UHGV virus genome: UHGV-1654074
Reading direction: 5' to 3' (one strand)
DNA: 12,580 nucleotides
Origin: a virus
The position numbers were made by a program, and so were the translations under genes. How positions within the stretch are numbered: position 1 is the first letter of the stretch; every line of letters starts with the position of its first letter. Below are positions 44 to 12,580 of this stretch, piece by piece. The notes beneath the pieces were generated by a model that saw nothing but the letters and a program-made list of their open reading frames with translations, made no database searches and was not told the DNA's origin.

Positions 44-72
44 AGTCAAAACGTACAGAGGAATTTAAAAAG

Positions 73-1470
73 ATGCCGGAATCCATTCGAAACATGATTA
101 CTCCGCCACGCAACAGTGCTCCACGCGTACAGGATGATGAACCTGCAGCCTCCCGGACGCCAGTGCAGGCAGCAGCACCCGTGGTGGATGAAAACAGCAT
201 CCGTGCGCAGGTACTGGCAGAGCAAAAAGCGCGTGTAAACGGTATTAATGATCTGTTTGCCATGTTTGACGGGCGTTATCAGACGCTGCAGGCTCAGTGT
301 CTTGCCGATCCTGAATGTTCGCTGGAGCAGGCCCGCGAAAAGCTGTTGAACGAGATGGGTCGCGAGTCCACGCCATCCAATAAAAATACCCTGGATCATA
401 TTTATGCCGGTAACGGTAATTTTGTGGGGGACGGGATCCGCCAGGCGCTGATGGCGCGTGCCGGATTTGAAAAAACCGAACGTGATAATGTCTACAACGG
501 GATGACCCTGCGTGAATATGCCCGTATGTCACTGACTGAACGGGGTATTGGGGTTTCCAGTTATAACCCGATGCAGATGGTCGGTGCGGCGTTCACACAC
601 AGTACGTCTGACTTCGGTAATATTCTGCTGGATGTTGCGAACAAAGCCATTCTGCAGGGCTGGGAAGATGCCCCTGAAACCTATGAACAGTGGACGCGGA
701 AAGGTCAGTTGTCTGATTTTAAAATTGCCCATCGTGTGGGTATGGGGGGCTTCAGTGCTCTGCGTCAGGTGCGTGAAGGGGCGGAATATAAATACGTCAC
801 CACCGGAGATAAACAGGCCACTATTGCACTGGCGACCTATGGCGAGCTGTTCAGTATCACCCGTCAGGCCATTATCAATGATGATCTGAATATGCTGACC
901 GATGTCCCGATGAAACTGGGCCGTGCGGCGAAATCCACTATTGCCGATCTGGTTTATGCCATTCTGACGTCTAACCCGAAAATATCCACAGATAATGTAA
1001 GTCTGTTCGATAAAGCGAAACATGCAAACGTACTGGAGAGCGCTGCAATGGACGTGGCATCGCTGGATAAAGCCCGCCAGTTGATGCGCGTACAGAAAGA
1101 GGGGGAGCGTCATCTGAATATTCGTCCTGCGTTCGTACTGGTACCGACGGCGATGGAGTCTGTTGCTAACCAGGTCATTCGCTCCTCAAGTGTCAAGGGG
1201 GCTGACATTAACGCCGGTATTATTAACCCGGTGAAAGATTTTGCGACCGTTATTGCAGAGCCTCGTCTTGATGATAACAGCCAGACCACCTTCTACCTGG
1301 CTGCGTCAAAAGGCTCCGATACGATTGAAGTGGCTTATCTCAACGGTGTGGATACGCCATATATTGATCAGATGGAGGGCTTCAGTGTGGATGGCGTGAC
1401 AACGAAAGTGCGTATTGACGCTGGTGTCGCGCCAGTTGATCACCGCGGTCTGGTGAAATGTACGGCGTAA
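73..1470 (+). CDS. Putative major capsid (head) protein, 465 aa from the ATG at 73. The frame is open upstream to the adapter junction, so the N-terminus could be truncated.
   Basis: Large ORF directly upstream of the head-completion and tail genes, i.e. in the gene E slot of lambda-like order. The N-terminal ~100 aa are charged and helical-looking (ENSIRAQVLAEQKARV..., EQAREKLLNEMGRE), as in capsid delta/scaffold-like domains. AGAGGA lies 10 nt upstream of the ATG at 73. Not recognisably lambda gpE; the fold assignment is inference. Confidence 0.55.
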   Translation: MPESIRNMITPPRNSAPRVQDDEPAASRTPVQAAAPVVDENSIRAQVLAEQKARVNGINDLFAMFDGRYQTLQAQCLADPECSLEQAREKLLNEMGRESTPSNKNTLDHIYAGNGNFVGDGIRQALMARAGFEKTERDNVYNGMTLREYARMSLTERGIGVSSYNPMQMVGAAFTHSTSDFGNILLDVANKAILQGWEDAPETYEQWTRKGQLSDFKIAHRVGMGGFSALRQVREGAEYKYVTTGDKQATIALATYGELFSITRQAIINDDLNMLTDVPMKLGRAAKSTIADLVYAILTSNPKISTDNVSLFDKAKHANVLESAAMDVASLDKARQLMRVQKEGERHLNIRPAFVLVPTAMESVANQVIRSSSVKGADINAGIINPVKDFATVIAEPRLDDNSQTTFYLAASKGSDTIEVAYLNGVDTPYIDQMEGFSVDGVTTKVRIDAGVAPVDHRGLVKCTA

Positions 1471-1493
1471 ACGTCGCAGATAACAACTCTGAT

Positions 1494-1513
1494 GGCCCGT
1501 AAGGGCTTTTTTT
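1494..1513 (+). terminator. Weak intrinsic-terminator-like element: short GC stem (GCCC/GGGC) with GTAA tetraloop followed by T7.
   Basis: ggcccgtaagggc followed by ttttttt, 24 nt after the capsid stop (1468-1470). The stem is only 4-5 bp, so strength is doubtful. Confidence 0.35.
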
Positions 1514-1524
1514 GTACCTGAAAT

Positions 1525-1543
1525 CAGCCCCTGAACGGGGCTG
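1525..1543 (+). promoter_or_regulatory. Stable hairpin (7-bp stem CAGCCCC/GGGGCTG, loop TGAAC) just upstream of the RBS of the next gene; no U-tract, so not a terminator. Possible mRNA stability or translation-modulating structure.
   Basis: Perfect 7-bp inverted repeat at 1525-1531 / 1537-1543. GGAGA (1546-1550) and the ATG at 1557 follow. Confidence 0.3.
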
Positions 1544-1556
1544 TGCGGAGACAGTT

Positions 1557-1880
1557 ATGGCAAAGAATTTTGTAGAAGAAGGAAAAACGGTGGCGATTGT
1601 TGCCAGTGCAGCCATCAGCAGCGGAGATCTGGTGCAGGTGGGGGATGTTTTTGCGGTGGCGCTGACCGATATTCCACAGGGTGAAACAGGCGACGGCCTG
1701 ACCGAAGGTGTGTTTATGCTGCCTAAGCTGAAAACGGATGACATGAAAACGGGTAAGAAGGTTTATCTGAAGTCCGGAAAAGTTCAGCTGACTAACAGCG
1801 GCTCTGATCCGCTGGTCGGGGTTGTCTGGGCAGATGCCGGAACCAGTGCAGAAGAAGTGCCGGTAAAACTCAATGTCTGA
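1557..1880 (+). CDS. Small head-associated protein, 107 aa; resembles DUF2190-type small proteins found next to capsid genes (possible decoration or head-completion role). Occupies the lambda FI slot but is not FI-like in size.
   Basis: ORF 1512-1880 in the track. I place the start at the internal ATG at 1557 (MAKNFVEEGKT...), which has GGAGA 6 nt upstream; the track start at 1512 lies in the terminator/hairpin region. Family assignment is from recalled sequence pattern (GVFMLPK..., VPVKLNV C-terminus) and is tentative. Confidence 0.45.
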   Translation: MAKNFVEEGKTVAIVASAAISSGDLVQVGDVFAVALTDIPQGETGDGLTEGVFMLPKLKTDDMKTGKKVYLKSGKVQLTNSGSDPLVGVVWADAGTSAEEVPVKLNV

Positions 1881-2148
1881 TCCCTTTTCCCGGCTGGCAG
1901 CGCGTATGGATGCGATCACGGTCAGAAAGATGGGAAAGACAGCCTCGATTAATGATGTCGATATGACTGTGATCCCGGGAGAAACACTGGCAGAGCTGAA
2001 TGCTCTGTCCGGACCTGCGGTCTCTCTGGTGGTGTTTTCTTCGGGATACCGCCCACGGCGCGGGGATCGCGTTGTTTATGACGGACAACAATGGACGGTC
2101 ACACGGCATGAACGCTTTAACGGTAAGCCAATGATCTTTATTGAGTAA
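1873..2148 (+). CDS. Head-tail joining / head-completion protein, gpFII-like by position and size (91 aa).
   Basis: Start overlaps the upstream stop (ATGTCTGA, 1873-1880), indicating translational coupling. Small protein immediately before Z. The C-terminal RRGDRVVYDGQQWTVTRHERF resembles head-tail adaptor proteins. Shorter than lambda FII (117 aa), so homology is uncertain. Confidence 0.5.
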   Translation: MSDPFSRLAARMDAITVRKMGKTASINDVDMTVIPGETLAELNALSGPAVSLVVFSSGYRPRRGDRVVYDGQQWTVTRHERFNGKPMIFIE

Positions 2149-2159
2149 AGAGGTGTGGG

Positions 2160-2738
2160 ATGAAGGGGCTTGAGAATGCCATCCGCAATCTGAACAGCCT
2201 TGATACCCGTATGGTGCCACAGGCCAGCGCATGGGCGATAAACCGTGTGGCACAGAAAGCGGTCTCGGTTGCCACCCGGCAGGTTGCCGGGAATACCGTT
2301 GCGGGAGATAACCAGGTGAAAGGGATCCCCCTGAAACTGGTACGTCAGCGTGTCCGGGTGTTTAAAGCCAGTCCGTCAGGAAAAATGACGGCCAGGATCC
2401 GCGTTAACCGGGGCAATCTGCCTGCCATTAAGCTGGGGACAGCCCGGGTCAGACTGACCCGGCGTGGTGGAAAACTGCAGTACCGTGGCAGCGTGCTGAA
2501 GGTGGGTAAATATCTTTTCCGGGATGCGTTTATTCAGCAACTGGCGAATGGTCGCTGGCATGTGATGCGGCGTATTGATGGCAAAAATCGTTACCCCATT
2601 GATGTGGTGAAAATCCCTCTGTCCGTACCGCTGACACAGGCATTTGAAGATGCCCGCGACCGCATCATTGCTGCGGAAATGCCGAAACAGCTGGGGTATG
2701 CACTGAAACAACAACTGAGGTTATGGCTGACCCGATGA
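2160..2738 (+). CDS. Z: Tail completion protein Z homologue (192 aa, the same length as lambda gpZ).
   Basis: 192-aa ORF in the lambda Z position with GAGG upstream of the ATG. Its stop overlaps the U start in an ATGA motif, as in lambda. Confidence 0.8.
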   Translation: MKGLENAIRNLNSLDTRMVPQASAWAINRVAQKAVSVATRQVAGNTVAGDNQVKGIPLKLVRQRVRVFKASPSGKMTARIRVNRGNLPAIKLGTARVRLTRRGGKLQYRGSVLKVGKYLFRDAFIQQLANGRWHVMRRIDGKNRYPIDVVKIPLSVPLTQAFEDARDRIIAAEMPKQLGYALKQQLRLWLTR

Positions 2739-3136
2739 ACCGACATACACAAATCCGCCAGGTCGTACTGGCACGCCTTCGGGAGCAGTGTGGAGACAGC
2801 GCCACGTTTTTTGACGGGCTTCCGGCATTTGTTGATGCGCAGGAACTGCCTGCCGTGGCGGTGTGGCTGAGTGATGCTCAGTACACCGGAAAAATGACGG
2901 ATGAAGATGACTGGCAGGCTGTTCTGCATATTGCTGTCTTCATCCGGGCACAGGCACCGGATTCAGAGCTGGATATGTGGATGGAGAGCACCATTTTCCC
3001 GGCCCTGAATGATGTACCGGCACTTTCCGGACTCATCGACACCCTGATCCCACTCGGTTTTAACTATCAACGTGATAATGAGATGGCCACCTGGGCGATG
3101 GCGGAAATCACGTACCAGATCACGTACACGAATTAA
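2735..3136 (+). CDS. U: Tail terminator protein U homologue (133 aa from the ATG at 2735; alternative start at 2723).
   Basis: Translation (...ATFFDGLPAFVDAQELPAVAVWLSDAQYTGK..., DSELDMWMES..., ITYQITY) matches my recollection of lambda gpU (131 aa). ATGA start/stop overlap with Z. Confidence 0.85.
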   Translation: MNRHTQIRQVVLARLREQCGDSATFFDGLPAFVDAQELPAVAVWLSDAQYTGKMTDEDDWQAVLHIAVFIRAQAPDSELDMWMESTIFPALNDVPALSGLIDTLIPLGFNYQRDNEMATWAMAEITYQITYTN

Positions 3137-3146
3137 GGAGGTGGTA

Positions 3147-3890
3147 ATGACCACACCAAATCCACTGGCAAAAACGAAAGGTGCGGGAACGACGTTCTGG
3201 ATGTACACCGGCAAGGGCGATGCGTTTGCGAACCCTTTATCGGACACTGACTGGCTGCGTCTTGCGATGGTGAAGGATCTGCAACCTGGCGAAATGACCG
3301 CTGATGCAGAAGATGACACTTATCTCGATGATGAAGATGCAGACTGGAAAACGACAACCCAGGGGCAGAAATCCGTCGGTGATACTTCGGCGACGCTGGC
3401 CTGGCGTCCGGGTGACAGCGGACAGAAAAGACTGGTTCAGTTGTTCGACTCCGGTGAAGTCTGCGCGTTTCGAATCAAATATCCCAACGGTACTGTTGAT
3501 GTTTTCCGTGGCTGGCTGAGTTCACTGGGTAAAACCATTGCCTCAAAAGACGTGATGACCCGCACAGTGAAAATCAGCGGTGTGGGGCGTCCGTATCTGG
3601 CAGAGGAGGGCACTGAAACCGTGGGCGTTACCGGGCTGACGGTGGCACCGGCATCCGCCAGTGTCAATGTGGGAGCAACCACCACGCTGACCTTTACAGT
3701 AAAACCTGACGGAGCCAGTGACAAAGCGATCAGTGTGCATTCGACAGATCCACAGACAGCCACTGTGACCCTGAACGGGCTTGTGGCCACGGTGAAAGGC
3801 GTGAAGCAGGGCAGTGTCAGCATTGTGGGCATGACTTCTGACGGCGATTTTGTGGCAGTGGCTACGGTGGCTGTCAGCGCCGCAGGTTAA
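3147..3890 (+). CDS. V: Major tail tube protein V homologue (247 aa) with a C-terminal Ig-like (Big_2-type) domain.
   Basis: AAGGAGG at 3135-3141, 5 nt before the ATG at 3147 (the track start at 3072 is upstream and unlikely). MTTPNPLAKTKGAGTTFW..., YLDDEDADW and NGTVDVFRGW motifs match my recollection of lambda gpV (246 aa). The C-terminal ~90 aa are T/V/S-rich beta-strand-like sequence typical of Ig-like domains. Confidence 0.9.
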   Translation: MTTPNPLAKTKGAGTTFWMYTGKGDAFANPLSDTDWLRLAMVKDLQPGEMTADAEDDTYLDDEDADWKTTTQGQKSVGDTSATLAWRPGDSGQKRLVQLFDSGEVCAFRIKYPNGTVDVFRGWLSSLGKTIASKDVMTRTVKISGVGRPYLAEEGTETVGVTGLTVAPASASVNVGATTTLTFTVKPDGASDKAISVHSTDPQTATVTLNGLVATVKGVKQGSVSIVGMTSDGDFVAVATVAVSAAG

Positions 3891-3910
3891 CAGGACGATA
3901 CTCATCATTT

Positions 3911-3934
3911 GCCCCGGTTATCCGGGGCTTTTTT
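3911..3934 (+). terminator. Intrinsic (rho-independent) terminator-like hairpin between V and G: 7-bp GC stem GCCCCGG/CCGGGGC, TTAT loop, then T6.
   Basis: gccccggttatccggggctttttt read directly. The V-G spacer is 57 bp, against roughly 15 bp in lambda as I recall it. Confidence 0.6.
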
Positions 3935-3950
3935 GCAGGTGGAGAACATG

Positions 3951-4337
3951 ATGTTTCTGAAACAGGGCACGTTTAATCATGAAAAACAGTCCGTGGTGCT
4001 CAGTGAGCTGTCCGGGCTGCAGAGAATTGAATATCTGGCGTTTCTTCAGCAGCGAACGGCAAAGTTTGATGCCGAAGAGGGAGAACTGCCGGAGGCTGAA
4101 CGACAGATTGCTTTTCTGCGGATGGGGATGGATATCAATGCCTGGCTGGTTTCCCGCTCACTGTGGAATGCGGATCAGTCTAAGGATGTAGAGACGCTTT
4201 GCGCATCCGTTATTACAACATGGTCGTATGATGCCCTGGGTGCGGGGGCGGAGATGGTTCTGTCGCTGAGCGGTATGGGGGCCATTGAGAATGCCGGGGA
4301 TTTGGAGCATGAGGTGCTGACGCCGGAAAAGTCCTGA
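3951..4337 (+). CDS. G: Tail assembly chaperone G homologue (128 aa from the ATG at 3951; the ATG at 3948 is also possible).
   Basis: MFLKQGTFNHEKQSVVLSELSGLQRIEYLAF... resembles lambda gpG (MFLK..., LSELSALQRIEHLA..., 140 aa). GGAG at 3941-3944 is 6 nt before 3951. Confidence 0.85.
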   Translation: MFLKQGTFNHEKQSVVLSELSGLQRIEYLAFLQQRTAKFDAEEGELPEAERQIAFLRMGMDINAWLVSRSLWNADQSKDVETLCASVITTWSYDALGAGAEMVLSLSGMGAIENAGDLEHEVLTPEKS

Positions 4338-4675
4338 CGCGGGAAATGCAGTTTGTCATGCGGCTTGCCCGGGAGTTCCGGCGGGCAGACTGGCGGCGGA
4401 TGCTGTCGGAAATGTCGGCCACTGAGCTTGGTGAGTGGGGCGATTATTTCCGGATGCAGAGCTTTAGTGATGTGTGGATGGATGCGCAGTTTGCCTCGCT
4501 GAAGGCATTGATCGTGAGAATGGTGTCCGGCAGCAGTGATGCTGCGGTGGCTGATTTCAGCCTTTTACCGGAAGAGAACGGGATACCGGAGCGAACGGAC
4601 GAAGAACTGATGCATCTTGGGGAAGGTATTTCCGGAGGTGTGCGTTATGGACCAGATAGCCAACCTGGTCATTGA
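3951..4675 (+). CDS. G-T: G-T fusion tail assembly chaperone made by programmed -1 ribosomal frameshift near the end of G (candidate slip site G GAA AAG at 4325-4331); T portion 4331-4675. Predicted fusion about 241 aa.
   Basis: The frame of ORF 4346-4675 is -1 relative to G. That frame is open from 4313 (an in-frame TGA at 4310-4312 closes it upstream), so entry must occur within 4313-4334. The only heptamer there with a shifty A-site codon is G GAA AAG. The T part has no SD of its own. Conserved G-T arrangement of lambda. Confidence 0.75.
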
Positions 4676-7600
4676 TTTGGGGATTGATGCGGCAGAGTTT
4701 AAAAATGAAATTCCCCGTATCAAAAACCTTCTGAATGGTGCAGCCAGCGATGCAGAACGGTCTTCTGCCCGTATGCAGCGTTTTATGGAGCGTCAGACTC
4801 AGGCCGCCCGGCAGACAACGCAGGCGGCTTCTTCGGCTGCAACAGCCGCATCCGTCCATGCGCAGACGGTGGAGAAGAACGCACAGGCTCATGAACGCAT
4901 GGCCCGCGAGGTGGAGAAAACCCGCCAGCGCATGGAGGCACTGAGCCAGAAAATGCGCGAGGAACAGGCGCAGGCCATGGCTCTGGCGGAGGCTCAGGAT
5001 AAAGCGGCTGCTGCGTTTTATCGTCAGATTGACAGTGTGAAACAGGCCAGTGCGGGGCTGCAGGAATTACAGCGTATTCAGCAGCAGATCCGACAGGCCA
5101 GAAACAGTGGCGGGATTGGTCAGCAGGATTATCTGGCGCTGATTTCTGAGGTTACTGCGAAAACCCGTGTTCTTACACAGGCTGAGGAAGAGGCTACCCG
5201 ACAGAAAGTGGCGTTTATCCGTCAGCTTAAAGAGCAGGCAACCCGCCTGAATCTTTCATCTTCTGAGTTGCTTCGTGCTAAGGCAGCCCAGCTGGGGGTA
5301 AGCAGTGCTGCAGAAGTGTATATCCGCAAAATGGAGCAGGCAGGAAAAGCCACGCATTCGCTGGGTCTGAAAAGTGCAGCAGCCCGCCAGGAGATAGGCG
5401 TTCTGATAGGTGAACTGGCCCGCGGCAATTTAGGGGCGCTGAGGGGATCCGGGATAACGCTGGCTAACCGTGCCGGATGGATAGACACACTGATGTCACC
5501 GAAAGGCATGATGCTTGGCGGGGTTATTGGCGGTATTGCCGCGGCCGTCTATGGTCTGGGTAAAGCCTGGTATGACGGTCAGAAGGAGGGGGAAGAATTT
5601 AACCGCCAGTTGTCGCTGACGGGGCATTATGCCGGAGTCACTGCCGGGCAGCTGTGGACGCTCAGTCGTGCTATTTCCGGGAATGGTATCACGCAACATG
5701 CTGCAGCCGGTGCGCTGGCTCAGGTGGTGGGGAGTGGTGCATTTCGTGGAAACGATATCGGTATGGTGGCGAGAGCTGCCGCACAGATGGAGCGATCGGT
5801 TGGCCAGTCGGTCAGCGATACCATAAATCAGTTTAAGCGGCTGAAGGATGATCCTGTAAATGCCGCGAAGGCTCTGGACAATGAGCTGCATTTTCTTACT
5901 GCCACTCAGCTTGAGCAGATACGCGTCCTTGGGGAGCAGGGGCGGTCCAGTGATGCTGCACGGATAGCCATGTCTGCACTGGCAGAGGAAACCGGTCGGC
6001 GTACTGCGGATATTGATAATAACCTCAATGCGCTTGGCAGTACGCTGAAGTATCTGTCTGATTTGTGGAGTCGTTTCTGGGATGCGGCCATGAATATTGG
6101 TCGTGAAGACTCGCTGGATGAACAGATTGCCGCTTTACAGGAGAAAGTGTCGCGGGCGAAAAGACTCCCCTGGACGGCATCATCTTCTCAGGTTGAATAC
6201 GATCAGCAGCGTCTTAACGATCTTCAGGAGAAAAAACGCCAGAAGGATTTGCAGGATGCAAAAGAGCAGGCAGAGCGGAATTATCAGGAGCAACAGAAAC
6301 GCCGTAATGCTGAAAATGCTGCACTGAACCGGATGAATGAAACGGAAGCAGCACGACATCAGCGTGAAATTGCGCGTATTAATGCCATGCAGTACGCCGA
6401 TCAGGCTGTCAGGGATGCGGCGATACAACGTGAAAATGAACGTTACGAGAAAGCCCTGGCATCCGGTAAGAAAAAAACACGCGAAACCCGTAATGATGAG
6501 GCCACCCGGTTATTGCTGCAGTACAGTCAGCAACAGGCACAGGTGGAAGGACAGATTGCTGCTGCCAGACAGTCAGCAGGCATTGCCACGGAAAGGATGA
6601 CAGAAGCGCATAAACAGCTTCTGGCTCTGCAGCAGCGCATCAGCGACCTGGACGGGAAAAAACTGACGGCAGATGAAAAGAGTGTGCTGGCCCGTAAAGA
6701 TGAACTGATTCAGGCACTGACGCTGCTGGATGTAAAACAGCAGGAGCTTCAGAAACAGACGGCACTCAACGAGCTGAAGAAAAAAACAATTCAGCTGACC
6801 AGTCAACTGGCTGAAGAAGAGCGCGCTCAGCGTCAGCAACATGACCTGGATATCGCCACGGTGGGTATGGGTGATCAGCAGCGACAGCGATATCAGGTAC
6901 AACTGAGTCTTCGCCAGAAATACCAGCAACAGCTGGAGCAGTTGAGGCGGGATAGTGAGCAGAAAGGGACATATAACACGGATGACTACAGAAAGGCCGA
7001 GCAGGCGCTGACGGAGAGCCTGAACCGACAACTGAATGAGAATCGCCGTTACTGGCAACAGCTTGAAGTTGTGCAGGGTAACTGGAAAAACGGAGTCCTG
7101 CGTGCATTTCAGGATTTTACCGTGGATGCAGATAATACGGCAGAAACAGCAGAACAGGTGTTCTCGTCAGCCTTCAGCAACATGGGAAATGGCCTGGCAA
7201 CTTTTGTCACTACCGGCAAACTCAATTTCAAATCTTTCACCTCTTCTGTGCTGTCAGATATGGCGAAAATCCTGGCGCAGGCAACCATGATGAAATCGAT
7301 AAAAGGGATTGGCAGTGTACTGGGATTTGATCTCAGCAGCCTTTCCCTGAATGCCAATGGGGGGATTTATCAGTCTGCTGATTTGAGTCGTTACAGTGGC
7401 ACGGTGGTTAACCGTCCGACGTTTTTTGCTTTTGCAAAAGGCGCGGGTGTGATGGGGGAAGCTGGACCTGAAGCCATTCTGCCACTGCGTCGTGGTGCTG
7501 ACGGTAAGCTGGGGGTTGTGGCGGATATTGGTGGTTCAGGTATGGCGATGTTTGCCCCGCAGTACAACATCGAGATCAATAACGATGGCACGAACGGGCA

Positions 7601-7712
7601 GATAGGTCCGGCTGCCCTGAAGGTGGTTTATGACCTTGGGAAAAAAGCGGCAGCGGACTTTATGCAACAGCAGGCCCGTGATGGTGGTCGGTTAAGTGGA
7701 GCATATCGGTAA
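4647..7712 (+). CDS. H: Tail length tape measure protein H homologue (1021 aa).
   Basis: GGAGGTG precedes the ATG at 4647 (the track start at 4617 is upstream and less likely). Very long Q/E/R/K/A-rich helical protein with an internal hydrophobic segment (MMLGGVIGGIAAAVYGLG). The C-terminal region (...FAFAKGAGVMGEAGPEAILPLRRGADGKLGV...) is as I recall for lambda gpH. Stop overlaps the M start (TAATG). Confidence 0.9.
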   Translation: MDQIANLVIDLGIDAAEFKNEIPRIKNLLNGAASDAERSSARMQRFMERQTQAARQTTQAASSAATAASVHAQTVEKNAQAHERMAREVEKTRQRMEALSQKMREEQAQAMALAEAQDKAAAAFYRQIDSVKQASAGLQELQRIQQQIRQARNSGGIGQQDYLALISEVTAKTRVLTQAEEEATRQKVAFIRQLKEQATRLNLSSSELLRAKAAQLGVSSAAEVYIRKMEQAGKATHSLGLKSAAARQEIGVLIGELARGNLGALRGSGITLANRAGWIDTLMSPKGMMLGGVIGGIAAAVYGLGKAWYDGQKEGEEFNRQLSLTGHYAGVTAGQLWTLSRAISGNGITQHAAAGALAQVVGSGAFRGNDIGMVARAAAQMERSVGQSVSDTINQFKRLKDDPVNAAKALDNELHFLTATQLEQIRVLGEQGRSSDAARIAMSALAEETGRRTADIDNNLNALGSTLKYLSDLWSRFWDAAMNIGREDSLDEQIAALQEKVSRAKRLPWTASSSQVEYDQQRLNDLQEKKRQKDLQDAKEQAERNYQEQQKRRNAENAALNRMNETEAARHQREIARINAMQYADQAVRDAAIQRENERYEKALASGKKKTRETRNDEATRLLLQYSQQQAQVEGQIAAARQSAGIATERMTEAHKQLLALQQRISDLDGKKLTADEKSVLARKDELIQALTLLDVKQQELQKQTALNELKKKTIQLTSQLAEEERAQRQQHDLDIATVGMGDQQRQRYQVQLSLRQKYQQQLEQLRRDSEQKGTYNTDDYRKAEQALTESLNRQLNENRRYWQQLEVVQGNWKNGVLRAFQDFTVDADNTAETAEQVFSSAFSNMGNGLATFVTTGKLNFKSFTSSVLSDMAKILAQATMMKSIKGIGSVLGFDLSSLSLNANGGIYQSADLSRYSGTVVNRPTFFAFAKGAGVMGEAGPEAILPLRRGADGKLGVVADIGGSGMAMFAPQYNIEINNDGTNGQIGPAALKVVYDLGKKAAADFMQQQARDGGRLSGAYR

Positions 7713-8041
7713 TGGAGACGTTTCACTGGAAAGTGCGCCCGGATATGAATGTGGTATCAGAGCCGAAAGTGGTGACAGTGAAGCTGGGCGATGGTTATGA
7801 ACAGCGTCGTGCGGCGGGACTGAATAACCAGTTGTCGACTTACAGCGTGACGATACGTGTTCGTAAATGTGAACACCCATCTTTAAAAGCCTTTCTGGAA
7901 CGGCACGGTGGCGTCCGCGCATTTCAGTGGACGCCACCTTATGACTGGAAGCCGATCAGGGTGGTTTGTCGTAAATGGTCGGCAAGCGTGGGGGCGTTGT
8001 GGGTAACCATAACGGCAGATTTTGAACAGGTCGTGGCATAG
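7712..8041 (+). CDS. M: Minor tail protein M homologue (109 aa, the same length as lambda gpM).
   Basis: 109-aa ORF coupled to the H stop. M.TF.WKV.P ... GDGY.QR ... TYSV ... WTPPY.W ... AEFEQVV pattern as in lambda gpM. Confidence 0.9.
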   Translation: METFHWKVRPDMNVVSEPKVVTVKLGDGYEQRRAAGLNNQLSTYSVTIRVRKCEHPSLKAFLERHGGVRAFQWTPPYDWKPIRVVCRKWSASVGALWVTITADFEQVVA

Positions 8042-8050
8042 GAGTCTCTG

Positions 8051-8749
8051 ATGCAGGATATTCCACAGGAAACACATCATGAGACGACACGCCTCACTCA
8101 GTCAGCCCAGGTGGTGCTCTGGGAAATCGATCTGACAGTGGTCGGTGGAGAACGTTATTTTTTCTGTAATGAGCAGAACGAAAAAGGTGAGCCGGTCACC
8201 TGGCAGGGGCGACAGTATCAGGCGTATCCCATTCAGGGGACGGGATTTGAACTGAACGGCAAGGGCAGTGCTGCCCGTCCGACACTGACGGTTTCTAACC
8301 TGCACGGCATGGTCACCGGGATGGCGGAAGACCTGCAGAGTCTGGTCGGCGGAACGGTGGTCCGGCGTAAGGTTTACGCCCGTTTTCTGGATGCGGTGAA
8401 CTTCGTCAACGGAAACAGTGACGCCGATCCGGAGCAGGAGGTGATCAGCCGCTGGCGCATCGAGCAGTGCAGCGAACTGAGCGCGGTCAGTGCCTCCTTT
8501 GTACTGTCCACGCCGACGGAAACGGATGGCGCTGTTTTTCCGGGACGTATCATGCTGGCCAACACCTGCACCTGGACCTATCGCGGTGATGAGTGCGGTT
8601 ATCACGGTCCGGCGGTCGCGGATGAATATGATCAGCCGACGTCCGATATCACGAAGGATAAATGCAGCAAATGCCTGAGCGGCTGTAAGTTTCGCAATAA
8701 CGTCGGCAACTTTGGCGGCTTCCTTTCCATTAACAAACTTTCGCAGTAA
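8051..8749 (+). CDS. L: Minor tail protein L homologue (232 aa, the same length as lambda gpL) with a C-terminal cysteine cluster.
   Basis: AGGAG 6 nt upstream. Sequence (VVLWEIDLT..GGERYFFCNEQNEKGEPVTWQGRQYQ...) closely matches my recollection of lambda gpL. Five cysteines lie in CTWTYRGDECGYHGP...DKCSKCLSGCKF. Confidence 0.9.
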   Translation: MQDIPQETHHETTRLTQSAQVVLWEIDLTVVGGERYFFCNEQNEKGEPVTWQGRQYQAYPIQGTGFELNGKGSAARPTLTVSNLHGMVTGMAEDLQSLVGGTVVRRKVYARFLDAVNFVNGNSDADPEQEVISRWRIEQCSELSAVSASFVLSTPTETDGAVFPGRIMLANTCTWTYRGDECGYHGPAVADEYDQPTSDITKDKCSKCLSGCKFRNNVGNFGGFLSINKLSQ

Positions 8750-8753
8750 ACCC

Positions 8754-9497
8754 ATGACAGAGACAGAATCAGCGATTCTGGCGCACGCCCGGCGATGTGC
8801 GCCAGCGGAGTCGTGCGGCTTCGTGGTGAGAACACCGGAGGGGGAAAGATATTTTCCCTGCGTGAATATCTCCGGTGAGCCGGAGGAGTATTTCCGGATG
8901 TCGCCGGAGGACTGGCTGCAGGCAGAAATGCAGGGTGAGATTGTGGCGCTGGTCCACAGCCACCCCGGTGGTCTGCCCTGGCTGAGTGAGGCCGACAGGC
9001 GGCTGCAGGTGCAGAGTGATTTGCCGTGGTGGCTGGTCTGCCGGGGGGCGATTCACAAGTTCCGCTGTGTGCCGCATCTCACCGGGCGGCGCTTTGAGCA
9101 CGGGGTGACAGACTGTTATACGCTGTTCCGCGATGCCTATCATCTTGCAGGTATCGATTTGCCGGATTTTTACCGACATGATGACTGGTGGAAATCAGGT
9201 CAGAATCTCTATCTGGATAATCTGGAGGCCACAGGGCTGTATCAGGTGGCGTTGTCATCAGCACAACCGGGCGATGTGCTGCTGTGCTGTTTTGGTTCAT
9301 CGGTGCCGAATCATGCCGCCATTTACTGTGGTGACAGCGAGCTGCTGCACCATATTCCTGAACAACTGAGCAAACGAGAGAGGTACACCGACAAATGGCA
9401 GCGACGCACACACTCCCTCTGGCGTCACCGGGCATGGCACGCATCTGCCTTTACGGGGATTTACAACGATTTGGCCGCCGCATCGACCTTCGTGTGA
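8754..9497 (+). CDS. K: Tail assembly protein K homologue, 247 aa from the ATG at 8754: N-terminal JAB/MPN (JAMM) metalloprotease-like domain plus C-terminal NlpC/P60-type Cys/His domain. An internal start at 8898 would give a 199-aa form.
   Basis: The JAMM motif H-x-H-x7-S-x2-D is present as HSHPGGLPWLSEAD. Candidate NlpC/P60 Cys (GVTDCYTLF) and His (NHAAIY, HH) lie downstream. The ATG at 8754 is 5 nt after the L stop; the track start at 8712 lies inside L and is unlikely. The ATG at 8898 has GGAGGA 9 nt upstream. Confidence 0.85.
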   Translation: MTETESAILAHARRCAPAESCGFVVRTPEGERYFPCVNISGEPEEYFRMSPEDWLQAEMQGEIVALVHSHPGGLPWLSEADRRLQVQSDLPWWLVCRGAIHKFRCVPHLTGRRFEHGVTDCYTLFRDAYHLAGIDLPDFYRHDDWWKSGQNLYLDNLEATGLYQVALSSAQPGDVLLCCFGSSVPNHAAIYCGDSELLHHIPEQLSKRERYTDKWQRRTHSLWRHRAWHASAFTGIYNDLAAASTFV

Positions 9498-10066
9498 AAA
9501 CGGGGGCTGAAGCCATTCGGGCGCTGGCCACACAGCTCCCGGCGTTTCGTCAGAAACTGAGCGACGGCTGGTATCAGGTACGGATTGCCGGGCAGGATGT
9601 CAGCACGTCCGGATTAACGGCGCAGTTACATGAGACTCTGCCTGATGGCGCTGTGATTCATATTGTTCCCAGAGTCGCCGGGGCCAAGTCAGGGGGTGTA
9701 TTCCAGATTGTCCTGGGAGCAGCCGCCATTGCCGGATCATTCTTTACCGCCGGAGCCACCCTTGCAGCATGGGGGGCAGCCATTGGGGCCGGTGGTATGA
9801 CCGGTATCCTGTTTTCTCTCGGTGCCAGTATGGTGCTCGGTGGTGTGGCGCAGATGCTGGCACCGAAAGCCCGGACGCCCACAGCGACCAGCACGGATAA
9901 CGGTAAGCAGAACACGTATTTCTCTTCACTGGATAACATGGTTGCCCAGGGCAATGTTCTGCCTGTTCTGTACGGTGAAATGCGCGTGGGGTCACGCGTG
10001 GTTTCTCAGGAGATCAGCACGGCAGACGAAGGGGACGGTGGTCAGGTTGTGGTGATTGGTCGCTGA
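9395..10066 (+). CDS. I: Tail assembly protein I homologue (223 aa, the same length as lambda gpI); overlaps the 3' end of K by 103 nt in a different frame.
   Basis: MAATHTLPLASPGMARICLYGDLQRFGRRIDLRVKTGAEAIRALATQLPAFRQ... matches my recollection of lambda gpI. The hydrophobic Gly/Ala-rich C-terminal half is typical. Confidence 0.85.
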   Translation: MAATHTLPLASPGMARICLYGDLQRFGRRIDLRVKTGAEAIRALATQLPAFRQKLSDGWYQVRIAGQDVSTSGLTAQLHETLPDGAVIHIVPRVAGAKSGGVFQIVLGAAAIAGSFFTAGATLAAWGAAIGAGGMTGILFSLGASMVLGGVAQMLAPKARTPTATSTDNGKQNTYFSSLDNMVAQGNVLPVLYGEMRVGSRVVSQEISTADEGDGGQVVVIGR

Positions 10067-10085
10067 TGCAAAATGTTTTATGTGA

Positions 10086-10105
10086 AACCGCCTGCGGGCG
10101 GTTTT
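10086..10105 (+). terminator. Terminator-like hairpin in the I-J spacer: stem AACCGCC/GGCGGTT, loop TGCG, followed by a T-rich tract.
   Basis: aaccgcctgcgggcggttttgtcgttt read directly; it lies 20 nt after the I stop and 22 nt before the J ATG. Confidence 0.4.
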
Positions 10106-10123
10106 GTCGTTTATGGAGCGTGA

Positions 10124-12580
<2,457 letters not shown>

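What the first reader, a model, noticed from the sequence alone, without database searches (positions are those of the whole stretch)
4313..4346. G-T programmed -1 frameshift uses a non-canonical slippery heptamer right at the G stop
The T frame is -1 to G and open only from 4313, so the shift must occur in the last seven codons of G. The only candidate is G GAA AAG (4325-4331), with the shifty A AAG A-site codon but a GAA P-site codon, whereas the established lambda site is G GGA AAG. The site sits one codon before the G stop (4335-4337), which could add a stop-codon pause to the slippage. If efficiency differs from lambda, the G:GT ratio that controls tail assembly would differ.
Basis: partly seen in the sequence, partly recalled or inferred. 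Interest (0 to 1): 0.55.

Follow-up and report, generated by a model that had tools for sequence, protein, structure and literature searches.

The report
Common G GAA AAG tail-chaperone frameshift site
The odd-looking slippery sequence G GAA AAG at the end of this prophage's tail-chaperone gene G is real and is almost certainly where ribosomes slip back one base to make the G-T fusion protein, but it is the usual form of this signal in lambda-like phages of enteric bacteria and is already annotated in phages N15 and LLS, so it is ordinary.

Summary
G (3948/3951-4337) ends ACG CCG GAA AAG TCC TGA. The T frame is -1 relative to G and has a TGA at 4310-4312, so it is open only from 4313. G GAA AAG (4325-4331) is the only in-frame A_AAG or heptamer candidate in the overlap.

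It is not a peculiarity of this element. The window is an E. coli lambdoid prophage tail module, about 98.5% identical to the viable phages mEp460, cdtI, Ayreon and Tritos, which have the same junction. In 32 clusters of T homologues (under 90% identity), GGAAAAG sits at the position of lambda's GGGAAAG in 24. Lambda's own form is found in 3. The family motif is G-G-N-A-A-A-G.

GenBank already annotates GGAAAAG as the -1 slippery sequence in N15 and LLS. The first G, a third-codon base, is G in 30 of 31 informative clusters against 11.6 expected. This favours two-tRNA slippage, with tRNA-Glu re-pairing GAA to GGA through a central G.U mismatch.

The stop-codon pause idea is not supported: the stop lies 0, 1 or 5 codons away in relatives. 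No downstream hairpin was found. An SD-like GAGGTG at 4311-4316 is not conserved beyond what the amino-acid sequence requires.

Efficiency is unmeasured. In vitro, this heptamer was used as a "less slippery" control.

The parts
3911..3936 (+). Terminator-like GC hairpin plus T run between the major tail gene (V-like, ends 3890) and G
   Evidence: The same position is annotated as a rho-independent terminator in mEp460, Ayreon and N15.
3948..4337 (+). Gene G, tail assembly chaperone. There are tandem ATGs at 3948 and 3951; RefSeq uses 3951. The product is 129 aa from 3948.
   Evidence: Pfam PF06894, E 1.1e-39.
4310..4312 (+). TGA stop in the -1 (T) frame. It sets the upstream limit of the frameshift window.
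4311..4316 (+). SD-like GAGGTG, 8 nt upstream of the heptamer. The spacing resembles dnaX, so it is a possible but unproven stimulator. It is polymorphic (GAGGCG) in close relatives.
   Evidence: Predicted duplex with the 16S 3' end is -6.9 kcal/mol. The signal across lineages is not significant once the amino-acid sequence is held fixed (P = 0.20). The GTG/GCG polymorphism is shown.
4325..4331 (+). Slippery heptamer G GAA AAG (0 frame), read as GGA AAA G in the -1 frame
   Evidence: It is at the position homologous to lambda's G GGA AAG. It is conserved in 24 of 32 clusters, with position 1 G in 31/32, position 2 G in 32/32, positions 4-6 A in 32/32 and position 7 G in 29/32.
4335..4337 (+). 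G stop codon TGA, bypassed after the shift
4328..4675 (+). T segment in the -1 frame, from the AAA (Lys) codon of the shifted heptamer to the TGA at 4673-4675. It has 115 codons. The predicted GT fusion is G residues 1-128 plus VLTREM..., 242 aa counted from the ATG at 3948.
   Evidence: Pfam PF06223, E 4.5e-15. T-frame residues are conserved from this Lys onward.
4346..4348 (+). ATG used by RefSeq and mEp460 annotators as a separate T start. It is not a conserved start codon.
   Evidence: This codon is ATG in only 2 of 32 clusters and is otherwise CTG, CTT, CGN or CAT.
4647..7712 (+). Tape measure gene H, overlapping the end of T

Best explanation
This is the programmed -1 ribosomal frameshift site of a lambda-family tail assembly chaperone pair (G and GT), in its common N15/phi80-type form.

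Most ribosomes read ...CCG GAA AAG UCC UGA and release G. A small fraction slip back one base on G GAA AAG. They then read GUC CUG ACG... in the T frame and make a 242-aa G-T fusion (...TPEK|VLTREM...).

The most likely mechanism is tandem slippage. tRNA-Lys (anticodon mnm5s2UUU) moves from AAG to its cognate AAA. tRNA-Glu (mnm5s2UUC) moves from GAA to GGA. That keeps the first-position G:C pair and the third-position A:U pair and tolerates a central G.U.

Shown here: the anatomy, the homology, and nucleotide-level conservation of the heptamer across diverged lineages. Inferred: that the fusion is made, its amount, and the two-tRNA mechanism. Neither the nearby stop codon nor any RNA structure appears to be required.
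For: 1. Gene order is V - terminator - G - T(-1) - H. G is PF06894 and T is PF06223.
2. The junction is identical in isolated, plaque-forming phages mEp460 and Ayreon. Those two phage loci, 80 viral contigs and 7 genome contigs make up the other 89 members of the window's 90% cluster; all 90, the window included, carry GGAAAAG.
3. The same heptamer sits at the lambda-homologous position in phi80, LLS, Gifsy-2 and N15. It is annotated as the -1 slippery sequence in N15 and LLS.
4. Of 32 clusters below 90% T identity, 24 have GGAAAAG, 3 GGGAAAG, 1 GGGAAAA, 2 GGCAAAA, 1 AGAAAAG and 1 GGTAAAG.
5. Codon choice is constrained. GAA is used in 25 of 25 cases (background 54%) and AAG in 29 of 32 (background 34%). 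The third base of the preceding codon is G in 30 of 31 informative clusters against 11.6 expected (naive P 1.5e-12), across 8 different preceding codons.
6. Entropy at heptamer position 1 is 0.20 bits, against 1.35-1.99 bits at all other upstream third-codon positions.
7. T-frame residues are conserved from the slip Lys onward: K1 32/32, E6 28/32, F9 32/32. Upstream of it the T frame carries stops within 8 codons in 13 of 32 clusters. In Providencia heimbachae (L154) the overlap is only TCA CTG GAA AAG|TAG.
8. PRFect lists a 'twofour' motif class (two identical bases followed by four identical bases, a definition GGAAAA fits). It also notes that the GAA-reading tRNA can re-pair to GGA if G:U pairing is allowed.
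Against: No GT protein, junction peptide or frameshift rate has been measured for this element or, in the literature I could search, for any G GAA AAG phage site.

In a reconstituted E. coli system the very heptamer AUG GAA AAG was used as the 'less slippery / unfavourable' control. It gave mainly 0-frame product at all EF-G concentrations.

In vivo, the A_AAG tetramer without a stimulator was near background.

One lineage (Morganella, A GAA AAG TAA) lacks the position-1 G, and others have P-site codons GCA or GUA. Strict P-site re-pairing is therefore not universal.

The conservation statistics treat clusters as independent, and they are phylogenetically related.
Confidence: 0.87

Rival explanations
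1. Only tRNA-Lys slips, on the A_AAG tetramer, either in the A site or in the P site while the next codon waits. The GAA codon and the preceding G would play no part.
For: A_AAG is the most shift-prone tetramer in E. coli, reaching 5.6% with a strong pseudoknot. The A-A-A-G core is the only invariant part across the family, while the P-site codon varies (GAA, GGA, GCA, GUA). Morganella has A GAA AAG.
Against: Heptamer position 1 is a synonymous third-codon base and is G in 31 of 32 clusters, behind 8 different codons. The tetramer model gives no reason for that. Without a stimulator the tetramer is at background, and no stimulator was found here.
Confidence: 0.2
2. T is made on its own from the ATG at 4346, as RefSeq and the mEp460 record annotate it, and there is no frameshift.
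For: PGAP and the depositors annotate a separate 109-aa T CDS starting at 4346.
Against: That codon is ATG in only 2 of 32 clusters. The six T-frame codons before it (K-V-L-T-R-E) are conserved with relatives. The only SD-like bases (GGGAA) end 2 nt before the ATG. In lambda T has no independent start and GT is required, which is established knowledge (Levin 1993), summarised.
Confidence: 0.03
3. The G stop codon one codon downstream adds a termination pause that stimulates the slip.
For: The stop is always close, 0, 1 or 5 codons after AAG. In 7 clusters it directly follows the Lys codon (AAG TAG/TAA, AAA TAG), which is the classical 'shifty stop' arrangement.
Against: The distance is not conserved, and 13 of 32 clusters, including lambda, phi80 and N15, have 5 codons between. 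In this window, when UGA is in the A site the P-site tRNA-Ser on UCC cannot re-pair to GUC. The stop's position also follows from the conserved T-frame peptide (K-V-L / E-L) read in the other frame.
Confidence: 0.07
4. An upstream SD-like element (GAGGUG, 4311-4316) pairs with 16S rRNA and compensates for the weak heptamer, as in dnaX.
For: It is a six-base match to the SD consensus, with a predicted -6.9 kcal/mol duplex 8 nt upstream. Lineages show a position-specific peak of SD-like affinity 6-11 nt upstream: mean -3 against -0.6 kcal/mol background, and 25-41% of clusters at or below -4 against 8%.
Against: The signal disappears as evidence of selection when synonymous codons are shuffled with the peptide held fixed (P = 0.20 for the mean, 0.10 for the fraction). 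It follows from a conserved Glu. Close relatives carry GAGGCG. phi80/N15/LLS-type GGAAAAG sites have no such element.
Confidence: 0.2

Closest known systems
Phage N15 genes 14/15, and likewise phi80 and phage LLS genes 11/12: a G/GT-type -1 frameshift on GGAAAAG
   Same: The heptamer G GAA AAG is the same and sits at the same aligned position (GCG/GTG GAA AAG). The G (PF06894) and T (PF06223) families are the same, and so is the V-terminator-G-T-H gene order. The site is annotated as the slippery sequence in GenBank.
   Different: T identity to the window is only about 42% (LLS, phi80). In those phages the G stop is 5 codons after AAG rather than 1, and there is no SD-like GAGG upstream.
Phage lambda G/GT -1 programmed frameshift on G GGA AAG (Levin, Hendrix and Casjens 1993)
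   Same: The genes are homologous, the slip position is the same, the A-site codon AAG and tRNA-Lys are the same, and the product architecture is the same. No required downstream structure is known for either. The ratio is about 30:1 G:GT, or about 4%.
   Different: The P-site codon is GAA (Glu) rather than GGA (Gly). Re-pairing to the -1 codon therefore has a central G.U instead of being near-perfect. T is 37% identical and lacks lambda's C-terminal extension.
Gifsy-2 (Salmonella) G+G' frameshift pair
   Same: It is the closest diverged relative among the named phages fetched here (a Citrobacter prophage locus, L095, is closer at 66%). The junction is identical, ACG CCG GAA AAG TCC TGA, with GAGG at the same upstream position. 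Its T CDS product is annotated 'part of G+G' frameshift hybrid protein'.
   Different: T identity is 52-54%, and the host genus differs.
E. coli dnaX A AAA AAG frameshift
   Same: The A-site Lys AAG-to-AAA slip is the same, and there is an SD-like element at a comparable spacing in this window.
   Different: dnaX has a fully slippery P site, a proven SD stimulator and a downstream hairpin, and it shifts about 50% of ribosomes. Here there is no hairpin and the SD-like element is not demonstrably selected.

Membership tests
Lambda-type G/GT tail assembly chaperone frameshift (Levin 1993; Xu, Hendrix and Duda 2004) | Two overlapping ORFs between the major tail protein gene and the tape measure gene, the second in the -1 frame | tested here: met
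   V-like gene ends at 3890, G is 3948-4337, the T frame is open 4313-4675, and H starts at 4647.
Lambda-type G/GT tail assembly chaperone frameshift (Levin 1993; Xu, Hendrix and Duda 2004) | The upstream product is a gpG homologue and the downstream segment a gpT homologue | tested here: met
   PF06894 E 1.1e-39 and PF06223 E 4.5e-15. The alignment with lambda T has 37% identity and 31 invariant columns.
Lambda-type G/GT tail assembly chaperone frameshift (Levin 1993; Xu, Hendrix and Duda 2004) | The downstream ORF lacks a conserved start of its own, and its conserved residues begin at the slip site | tested here: met
   The codon at 4346 is ATG in only 2 of 32 clusters. K1, E6 and F9 are conserved from the slip Lys onward.
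Lambda-type G/GT tail assembly chaperone frameshift (Levin 1993; Xu, Hendrix and Duda 2004) | A conserved shift-prone heptamer in the overlap, in the right frame | tested here: met
   G GAA AAG at 4325-4331. The family motif is G-G-N-A-A-A-G, with near-zero entropy at 6 of 7 positions.
Lambda-type G/GT tail assembly chaperone frameshift (Levin 1993; Xu, Hendrix and Duda 2004) | A GT fusion protein is made at a few per cent of G and is needed for tail assembly | not testable with these tools
   This needs protein or reporter data. It is inferred only from the viability of phages with the identical junction.
Canonical X_XXY_YYZ tandem-slippage heptamer | [quoted passage not shown] | tested here: not met
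   The A site meets it (AAG to AAA). The P site does not: GAA to GGA gives a second-position G opposite U. states the same for this heptamer.
dnaX/IS-type stimulated -1 frameshift | Downstream hairpin or pseudoknot 5-9 nt after the heptamer | tested here: not met
   Folds of 44-89 nt downstream give z-scores of 0.09, -0.82 and -0.06 against shuffles. Lambda, phi80 and Gifsy-2 behave the same way.
dnaX/IS-type stimulated -1 frameshift | Selected SD-like element about 10 nt upstream | tested here: inconclusive
   GAGGTG is present at 4311-4316 (-6.9 kcal/mol). Family-wide enrichment is not significant once the peptide is fixed (P = 0.20).
'Shifty stop' frameshift (Weiss et al. 1987) | The stop codon is in the A site while the slipping tRNA is in the P site | tested here: not met
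   In the window the order is AAG-TCC-TGA, with one codon between. The feature is met in 7 of 32 related clusters, with AAG TAG/TAA or AAA TAG.

The most novel reading that the evidence does not exclude
G GAA AAG is the preferred natural G/GT signal (24 of 32 clusters), yet in vitro the same heptamer behaves as a poor slip site. These phages may therefore either run on a much lower GT:G ratio than lambda, or depend on an unrecognised stimulator.

One candidate follows from both slipping tRNAs, Glu and Lys, carrying mnm5s2U34: the ratio could be unusually sensitive to the host's tRNA thiolation state. Other candidates are an effect of the nascent acidic peptide or of the purine-rich context.
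Probability: 0.2. Interest if true: 0.5.

Novelty: already known. Interest (0 to 1): 0.22.

Why it matters
For this window it matters mainly for annotation. G and T should be joined by a -1 shift at 4325-4331 into a 242-aa GT product. RefSeq, mEp460, cdtI, Ayreon and phi80 records instead list T as a free-standing CDS.

More generally, the survey shows that the textbook lambda heptamer G GGA AAG is the minority form in its own family. The majority form breaks the X_XXY_YYZ rule at the P site while keeping its first base under clear selection.

That bears on frameshift predictors that search only for canonical heptamers. It also identifies a natural, abundant test case, present in about a third of complete E. 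coli genomes, for how much P-site mismatch tandem slippage tolerates in vivo. None of this is a new kind of system.

Tried and rejected
- Downstream stimulatory structure: I folded 44-89 nt after the heptamer in the window and 60 nt in lambda, phi80 and Gifsy-2. All z-scores were near 0, so this was rejected.
- Upstream SD-like stimulator: a position-specific peak of anti-SD affinity appears across lineages. A synonymous-codon shuffle with the peptide held fixed removes its significance. I kept it only as a low-confidence rival.
- Stop-codon pause: rejected because the distance to the stop varies (0, 1 or 5 codons) and UCC cannot re-pair.
- Independent T initiation at 4346: rejected, because the ATG is not conserved.
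- Transcriptional slippage: considered and set aside on general knowledge, because the A run is only 4 bases.
- Literature: six full-text searches, including 'GGAAAAG'/'GAA AAG' with frameshift, phage, slippery or tail assembly, found no open-access paper treating it as a phage site. The only relevant hit was Peng et al. 2019, which uses it as a low-slippage control. A seventh, title-based search for Sharma et al. 2014 found nothing; that paper was then read by DOI.
- Xu et al. 2004 (Mol Cell) is not held. I could not check whether it lists or tests this heptamer.
- The first IMG/VR scan returned only near-identical copies of the window's own lineage, so it added no diversity. The diversity came from the species-dereplicated genome scan.

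Full report
**1. What is in the sequence**

The window is the tail-gene module of an E. coli lambdoid prophage.
- The stretch 3900-4700 is 100% identical to E. coli SC423 (NZ_LR778145.1). It matches 1,848 of 5,426 complete E. coli genomes, nearly all at 95% identity or more.
- It is 98.1-98.8% identical to 17 phage records, including mEp460, cdtI, Ayreon, Tritos and HannyBb.
- Over the whole window, SC423 aligns at 99.4% for 44-9603 and 98.8% for 9821-12532.
- The gene order from the SC423 annotation is: head genes, tail terminator U, major tail protein (ends 3890), G, T, tape measure H (4647-7712), M, L, K, I, J.

G runs from tandem ATGs at 3948/3951 to TGA at 4335-4337, ending ...GAG GTG CTG ACG CCG GAA AAG TCC TGA.

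The -1 frame has TGA at 4310-4312 and is then open to 4675, reading GADAGKVLTREMQFVMRLAREF....

G GAA AAG is at 4325-4331.

G contains no canonical X_XXY_YYZ heptamer.

Pfam identifies G as PF06894 (lambda TAC protein G, E 1.1e-39). It identifies the -1 segment as PF06223 (minor tail protein T, E 4.5e-15).

**2. Is the heptamer more than chance?**

As a string it is not. GGAAAAG occurs six times in the window against 1.5 expected. The evidence comes from comparison with relatives.

I aligned the T segments of the window, Gifsy-2, LLS, phi80 and lambda. I used that alignment to fetch 80 viral contigs and 78 loci from species-dereplicated genomes. I then located the frame overlap in every locus.

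All 90 members of the window's own 90% cluster carry GGAAAAG.

After clustering T proteins at 90% identity there are 32 clusters:

| Heptamer | Clusters | Examples |
|---|---|---|
| GGAAAAG | 24 | window, phi80/LLS, Gifsy-2, and prophages of Citrobacter, Kosakonia, Kluyvera, Klebsiella, Enterobacter, Proteus, Providencia, Sodalis and others |
| GGGAAAG | 3 | lambda, E. albertii, Edwardsiella |
| GGGAAAA | 1 | Providencia rustigianii |
| GGCAAAA | 2 | Kluyvera genomosp. 1, Ewingella |
| AGAAAAG | 1 | Morganella |
| GGTAAAG | 1 | Pantoea |

All of these sit at the same aligned position as lambda's G GGA AAG. The family motif is therefore G-G-N-A-A-A-G, and lambda's canonical version is the minority.

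Per-nucleotide entropy makes the point.
- Every third-codon position in the 24 nt upstream has 1.35-1.99 bits.
- Heptamer position 1, also a third-codon position, has 0.20 bits (31 of 32 G). The first two bases of that same codon have 1.44 and 1.11 bits.
- Positions 2 and 4-6 are invariant. Position 7 is G in 29 of 32. Only position 3 varies (A 25, G 4, C 2, T 1).

Against the codon usage of these same genes:
- G at position 1 is seen in 30 of 31 informative clusters against 11.6 expected. The naive Poisson-binomial P is 1.5e-12. The preceding codons are CCG, GCG, GTG, CTG, TTG, AAG, ATG and GCA.
- Glu is GAA in 25 of 25 cases (background 54%).
- Lys is AAG in 29 of 32 cases (background 34%).

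These P values ignore shared ancestry, so they overstate the significance. The number of different preceding codons nevertheless shows repeated change around a fixed G.

**3. Is this where the frame changes?**

T-frame amino acids are conserved from the Lys of the shifted heptamer onward: K1 32/32, hydrophobic residues at 2-3, E6 28/32, F9 32/32, L13 32/32. The LARE motif is nearly invariant.

Upstream of that Lys, the T frame has stop codons within eight codons in 13 of 32 clusters.

The overlap is very short in some lineages. In Providencia heimbachae it is TCA CTG GAA AAG|TAG. In Edwardsiella it is GCG GGA AAG TTT|TAG.

The ATG at 4346 that RefSeq and the mEp460 record use as a T start is ATG in only 2 of 32 clusters. 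Elsewhere it is CTG, CTT, CGN or CAT. Independent initiation is therefore not a family feature.

The predicted product is G residues 1-128 (...EVLTPEK) joined to VLTREMQF..., 242 aa counted from 3948.

**4. Mechanism**

The A-site half is classical. AAG and AAA are read by one tRNA-Lys, and A_AAG is the most shift-prone tetramer in E. coli.

The P-site half is not. tRNA-Glu would move from GAA to GGA, a second-position mismatch, as Peng et al. state for exactly this heptamer. With G.U allowed, all three positions still pair. The PRFect authors make this point for the GAA-reading tRNA on GGA. Their 'twofour' class, two identical bases followed by four identical bases, fits GGAAAA.

The strong constraint on heptamer position 1 matters only for the -1 P-site codon. 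It is the main evidence here that the P-site tRNA takes part, meaning tandem slippage rather than tRNA-Lys slipping alone. I put about 0.6 on tandem slippage within the overall explanation.

The exceptions (A GAA AAG in Morganella; GCA or GUA P-site codons) show the rule is not absolute. In 7 clusters, including Morganella and all three AAA-type clusters, a stop codon directly follows the Lys codon. There a 'shifty stop' contribution is plausible.

**5. Stimulators**

- Downstream: there is no structure beyond what shuffled sequence gives (z = 0.09, -0.82, -0.06). The same holds for lambda, phi80 and Gifsy-2.
- Upstream: GAGGTG at 4311-4316 is a six-base SD match, 8 nt before the heptamer. By my own count the spacing is close to that of dnaX. 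Across clusters there is a clear positional peak of anti-SD affinity 6-11 nt upstream.
- That peak does not survive a control. When I shuffled synonymous codons with the peptide held fixed, the observed values were not unusual (P = 0.20 and 0.10).
- The peak reflects a conserved Glu five codons before the slip. Close relatives have GAGGCG, and phi80/N15/LLS-type sites have nothing there. A contribution in this particular phage is possible but unproven.
- The stop codon: its distance from AAG is 0, 1 or 5 codons in 7, 12 and 13 clusters. In the window, tRNA-Ser on UCC cannot re-pair to GUC. The stop-pause idea is not supported for this element.

**6. What is known**

- The lambda site G GGA AAG, the roughly 4% shift or 30:1 G:GT ratio, and the need for that balance are established.
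- The N15 GenBank record marks 10027-10033, which reads GGAAAAG, as 'slippery sequence for -1 translational frameshift'.
- The LLS record marks 'minus-one programmed translational frameshift site GGAAAAG' and joins the CDS.
- Gifsy-2's T is annotated as part of a G+G' frameshift hybrid.

The feature is therefore known to phage annotators. It is not annotated in mEp460, cdtI, Ayreon, phi80 or RefSeq E. coli records.

I found no open-access paper that discusses or measures G GAA AAG as a phage signal. Xu et al. 2004 is not held.

The only functional data are in vitro. AUG GAA AAG gave mainly 0-frame product at all EF-G concentrations, whereas G GGA AAG gave more than 70% -1 product at low EF-G. 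Both gave mostly 0-frame product at saturating EF-G. In vivo, A_AAG without a stimulator was near background.

A 2025 preprint reports efficient -1 sites outside the XXXYYYZ pattern, with purine-rich P sites and preceding bases. This fits G GAA AAG in general terms.

Lambda's ratio responds to thiolation of tRNA-Lys U34. Here both slipping tRNAs belong to the s2U34 set. That last point is my knowledge of tRNA-Glu, not something tested.

**7. Verdict**

It is a routine member of a known class and in fact the commonest form of that class. The 'stop-codon pause' is not supported.

What remains open is quantitative: how efficiently this mismatched heptamer shifts in vivo, and why it is preferred over the canonical one. 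That question is modestly interesting to recoding specialists but is not specific to this window.

Noticed in passing
window 3911-3936: A GC-rich hairpin (GCCCCGG-TTAT-CCGGGGC) followed by TTTTTT lies between the major tail gene and G. Terminators are annotated at the same place in mEp460, Ayreon and N15. It may lower expression of G, T and H relative to the major tail protein.
   Followed up: partly
window 4346 (annotation in NZ_LR778145.1, NC_019716.1, MF807953.1, NC_021190.1): RefSeq/PGAP and several phage records list T as a separate CDS with its own start, and Ayreon and phi80 start it even further in. None of them joins G and T, although N15 and LLS mark the same heptamer as the slippery site and LLS annotates the joined product.
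   Followed up: yes
loci L139-L151, L159-L163 (genome contigs): Short, low-coverage contigs in assemblies of unrelated organisms carry lambda T at 100% identity. The assemblies include Kitasatospora, Neobacillus, Oceanobacillus, Leeuwenhoekiella, Shewanella, Paenibacillus, Enterococcus and Marinifilum. This is most likely lambda DNA contamination of those assemblies.
   Followed up: no
L100/L101 (Morganella), L096 (Kluyvera genomosp. 1), L098 (Ewingella), L133/L135/L136/L153 (Pantoea), about 1198-1204 in each locus: Variant junctions occur at the homologous position: A GAA AAG TAA, G GCA AAA TAG and G GTA AAG. In all three AAA-type clusters and in four others, a stop codon directly follows the Lys codon.
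   Followed up: partly
window 9604-9820: This roughly 217-nt patch, in the region of the tail assembly protein (I-like) gene, does not align by blastn to the otherwise 99% identical SC423 prophage. That suggests a mosaic exchange. K and I ORF coordinates also shift by an indel relative to SC423.
   Followed up: no
window 11219-12568, minus strand: A 449-aa ORF lies antisense inside the J (tail tip) gene, whose + frame is open from 10121 to the end of the window. It is probably a spurious antisense ORF.
   Followed up: no
window 4314-4316: Within the near-identical lineage this codon is polymorphic, GTG (Val) or GCG (Ala). The change turns the SD-like GAGGTG into GAGGCG.
   Followed up: partly
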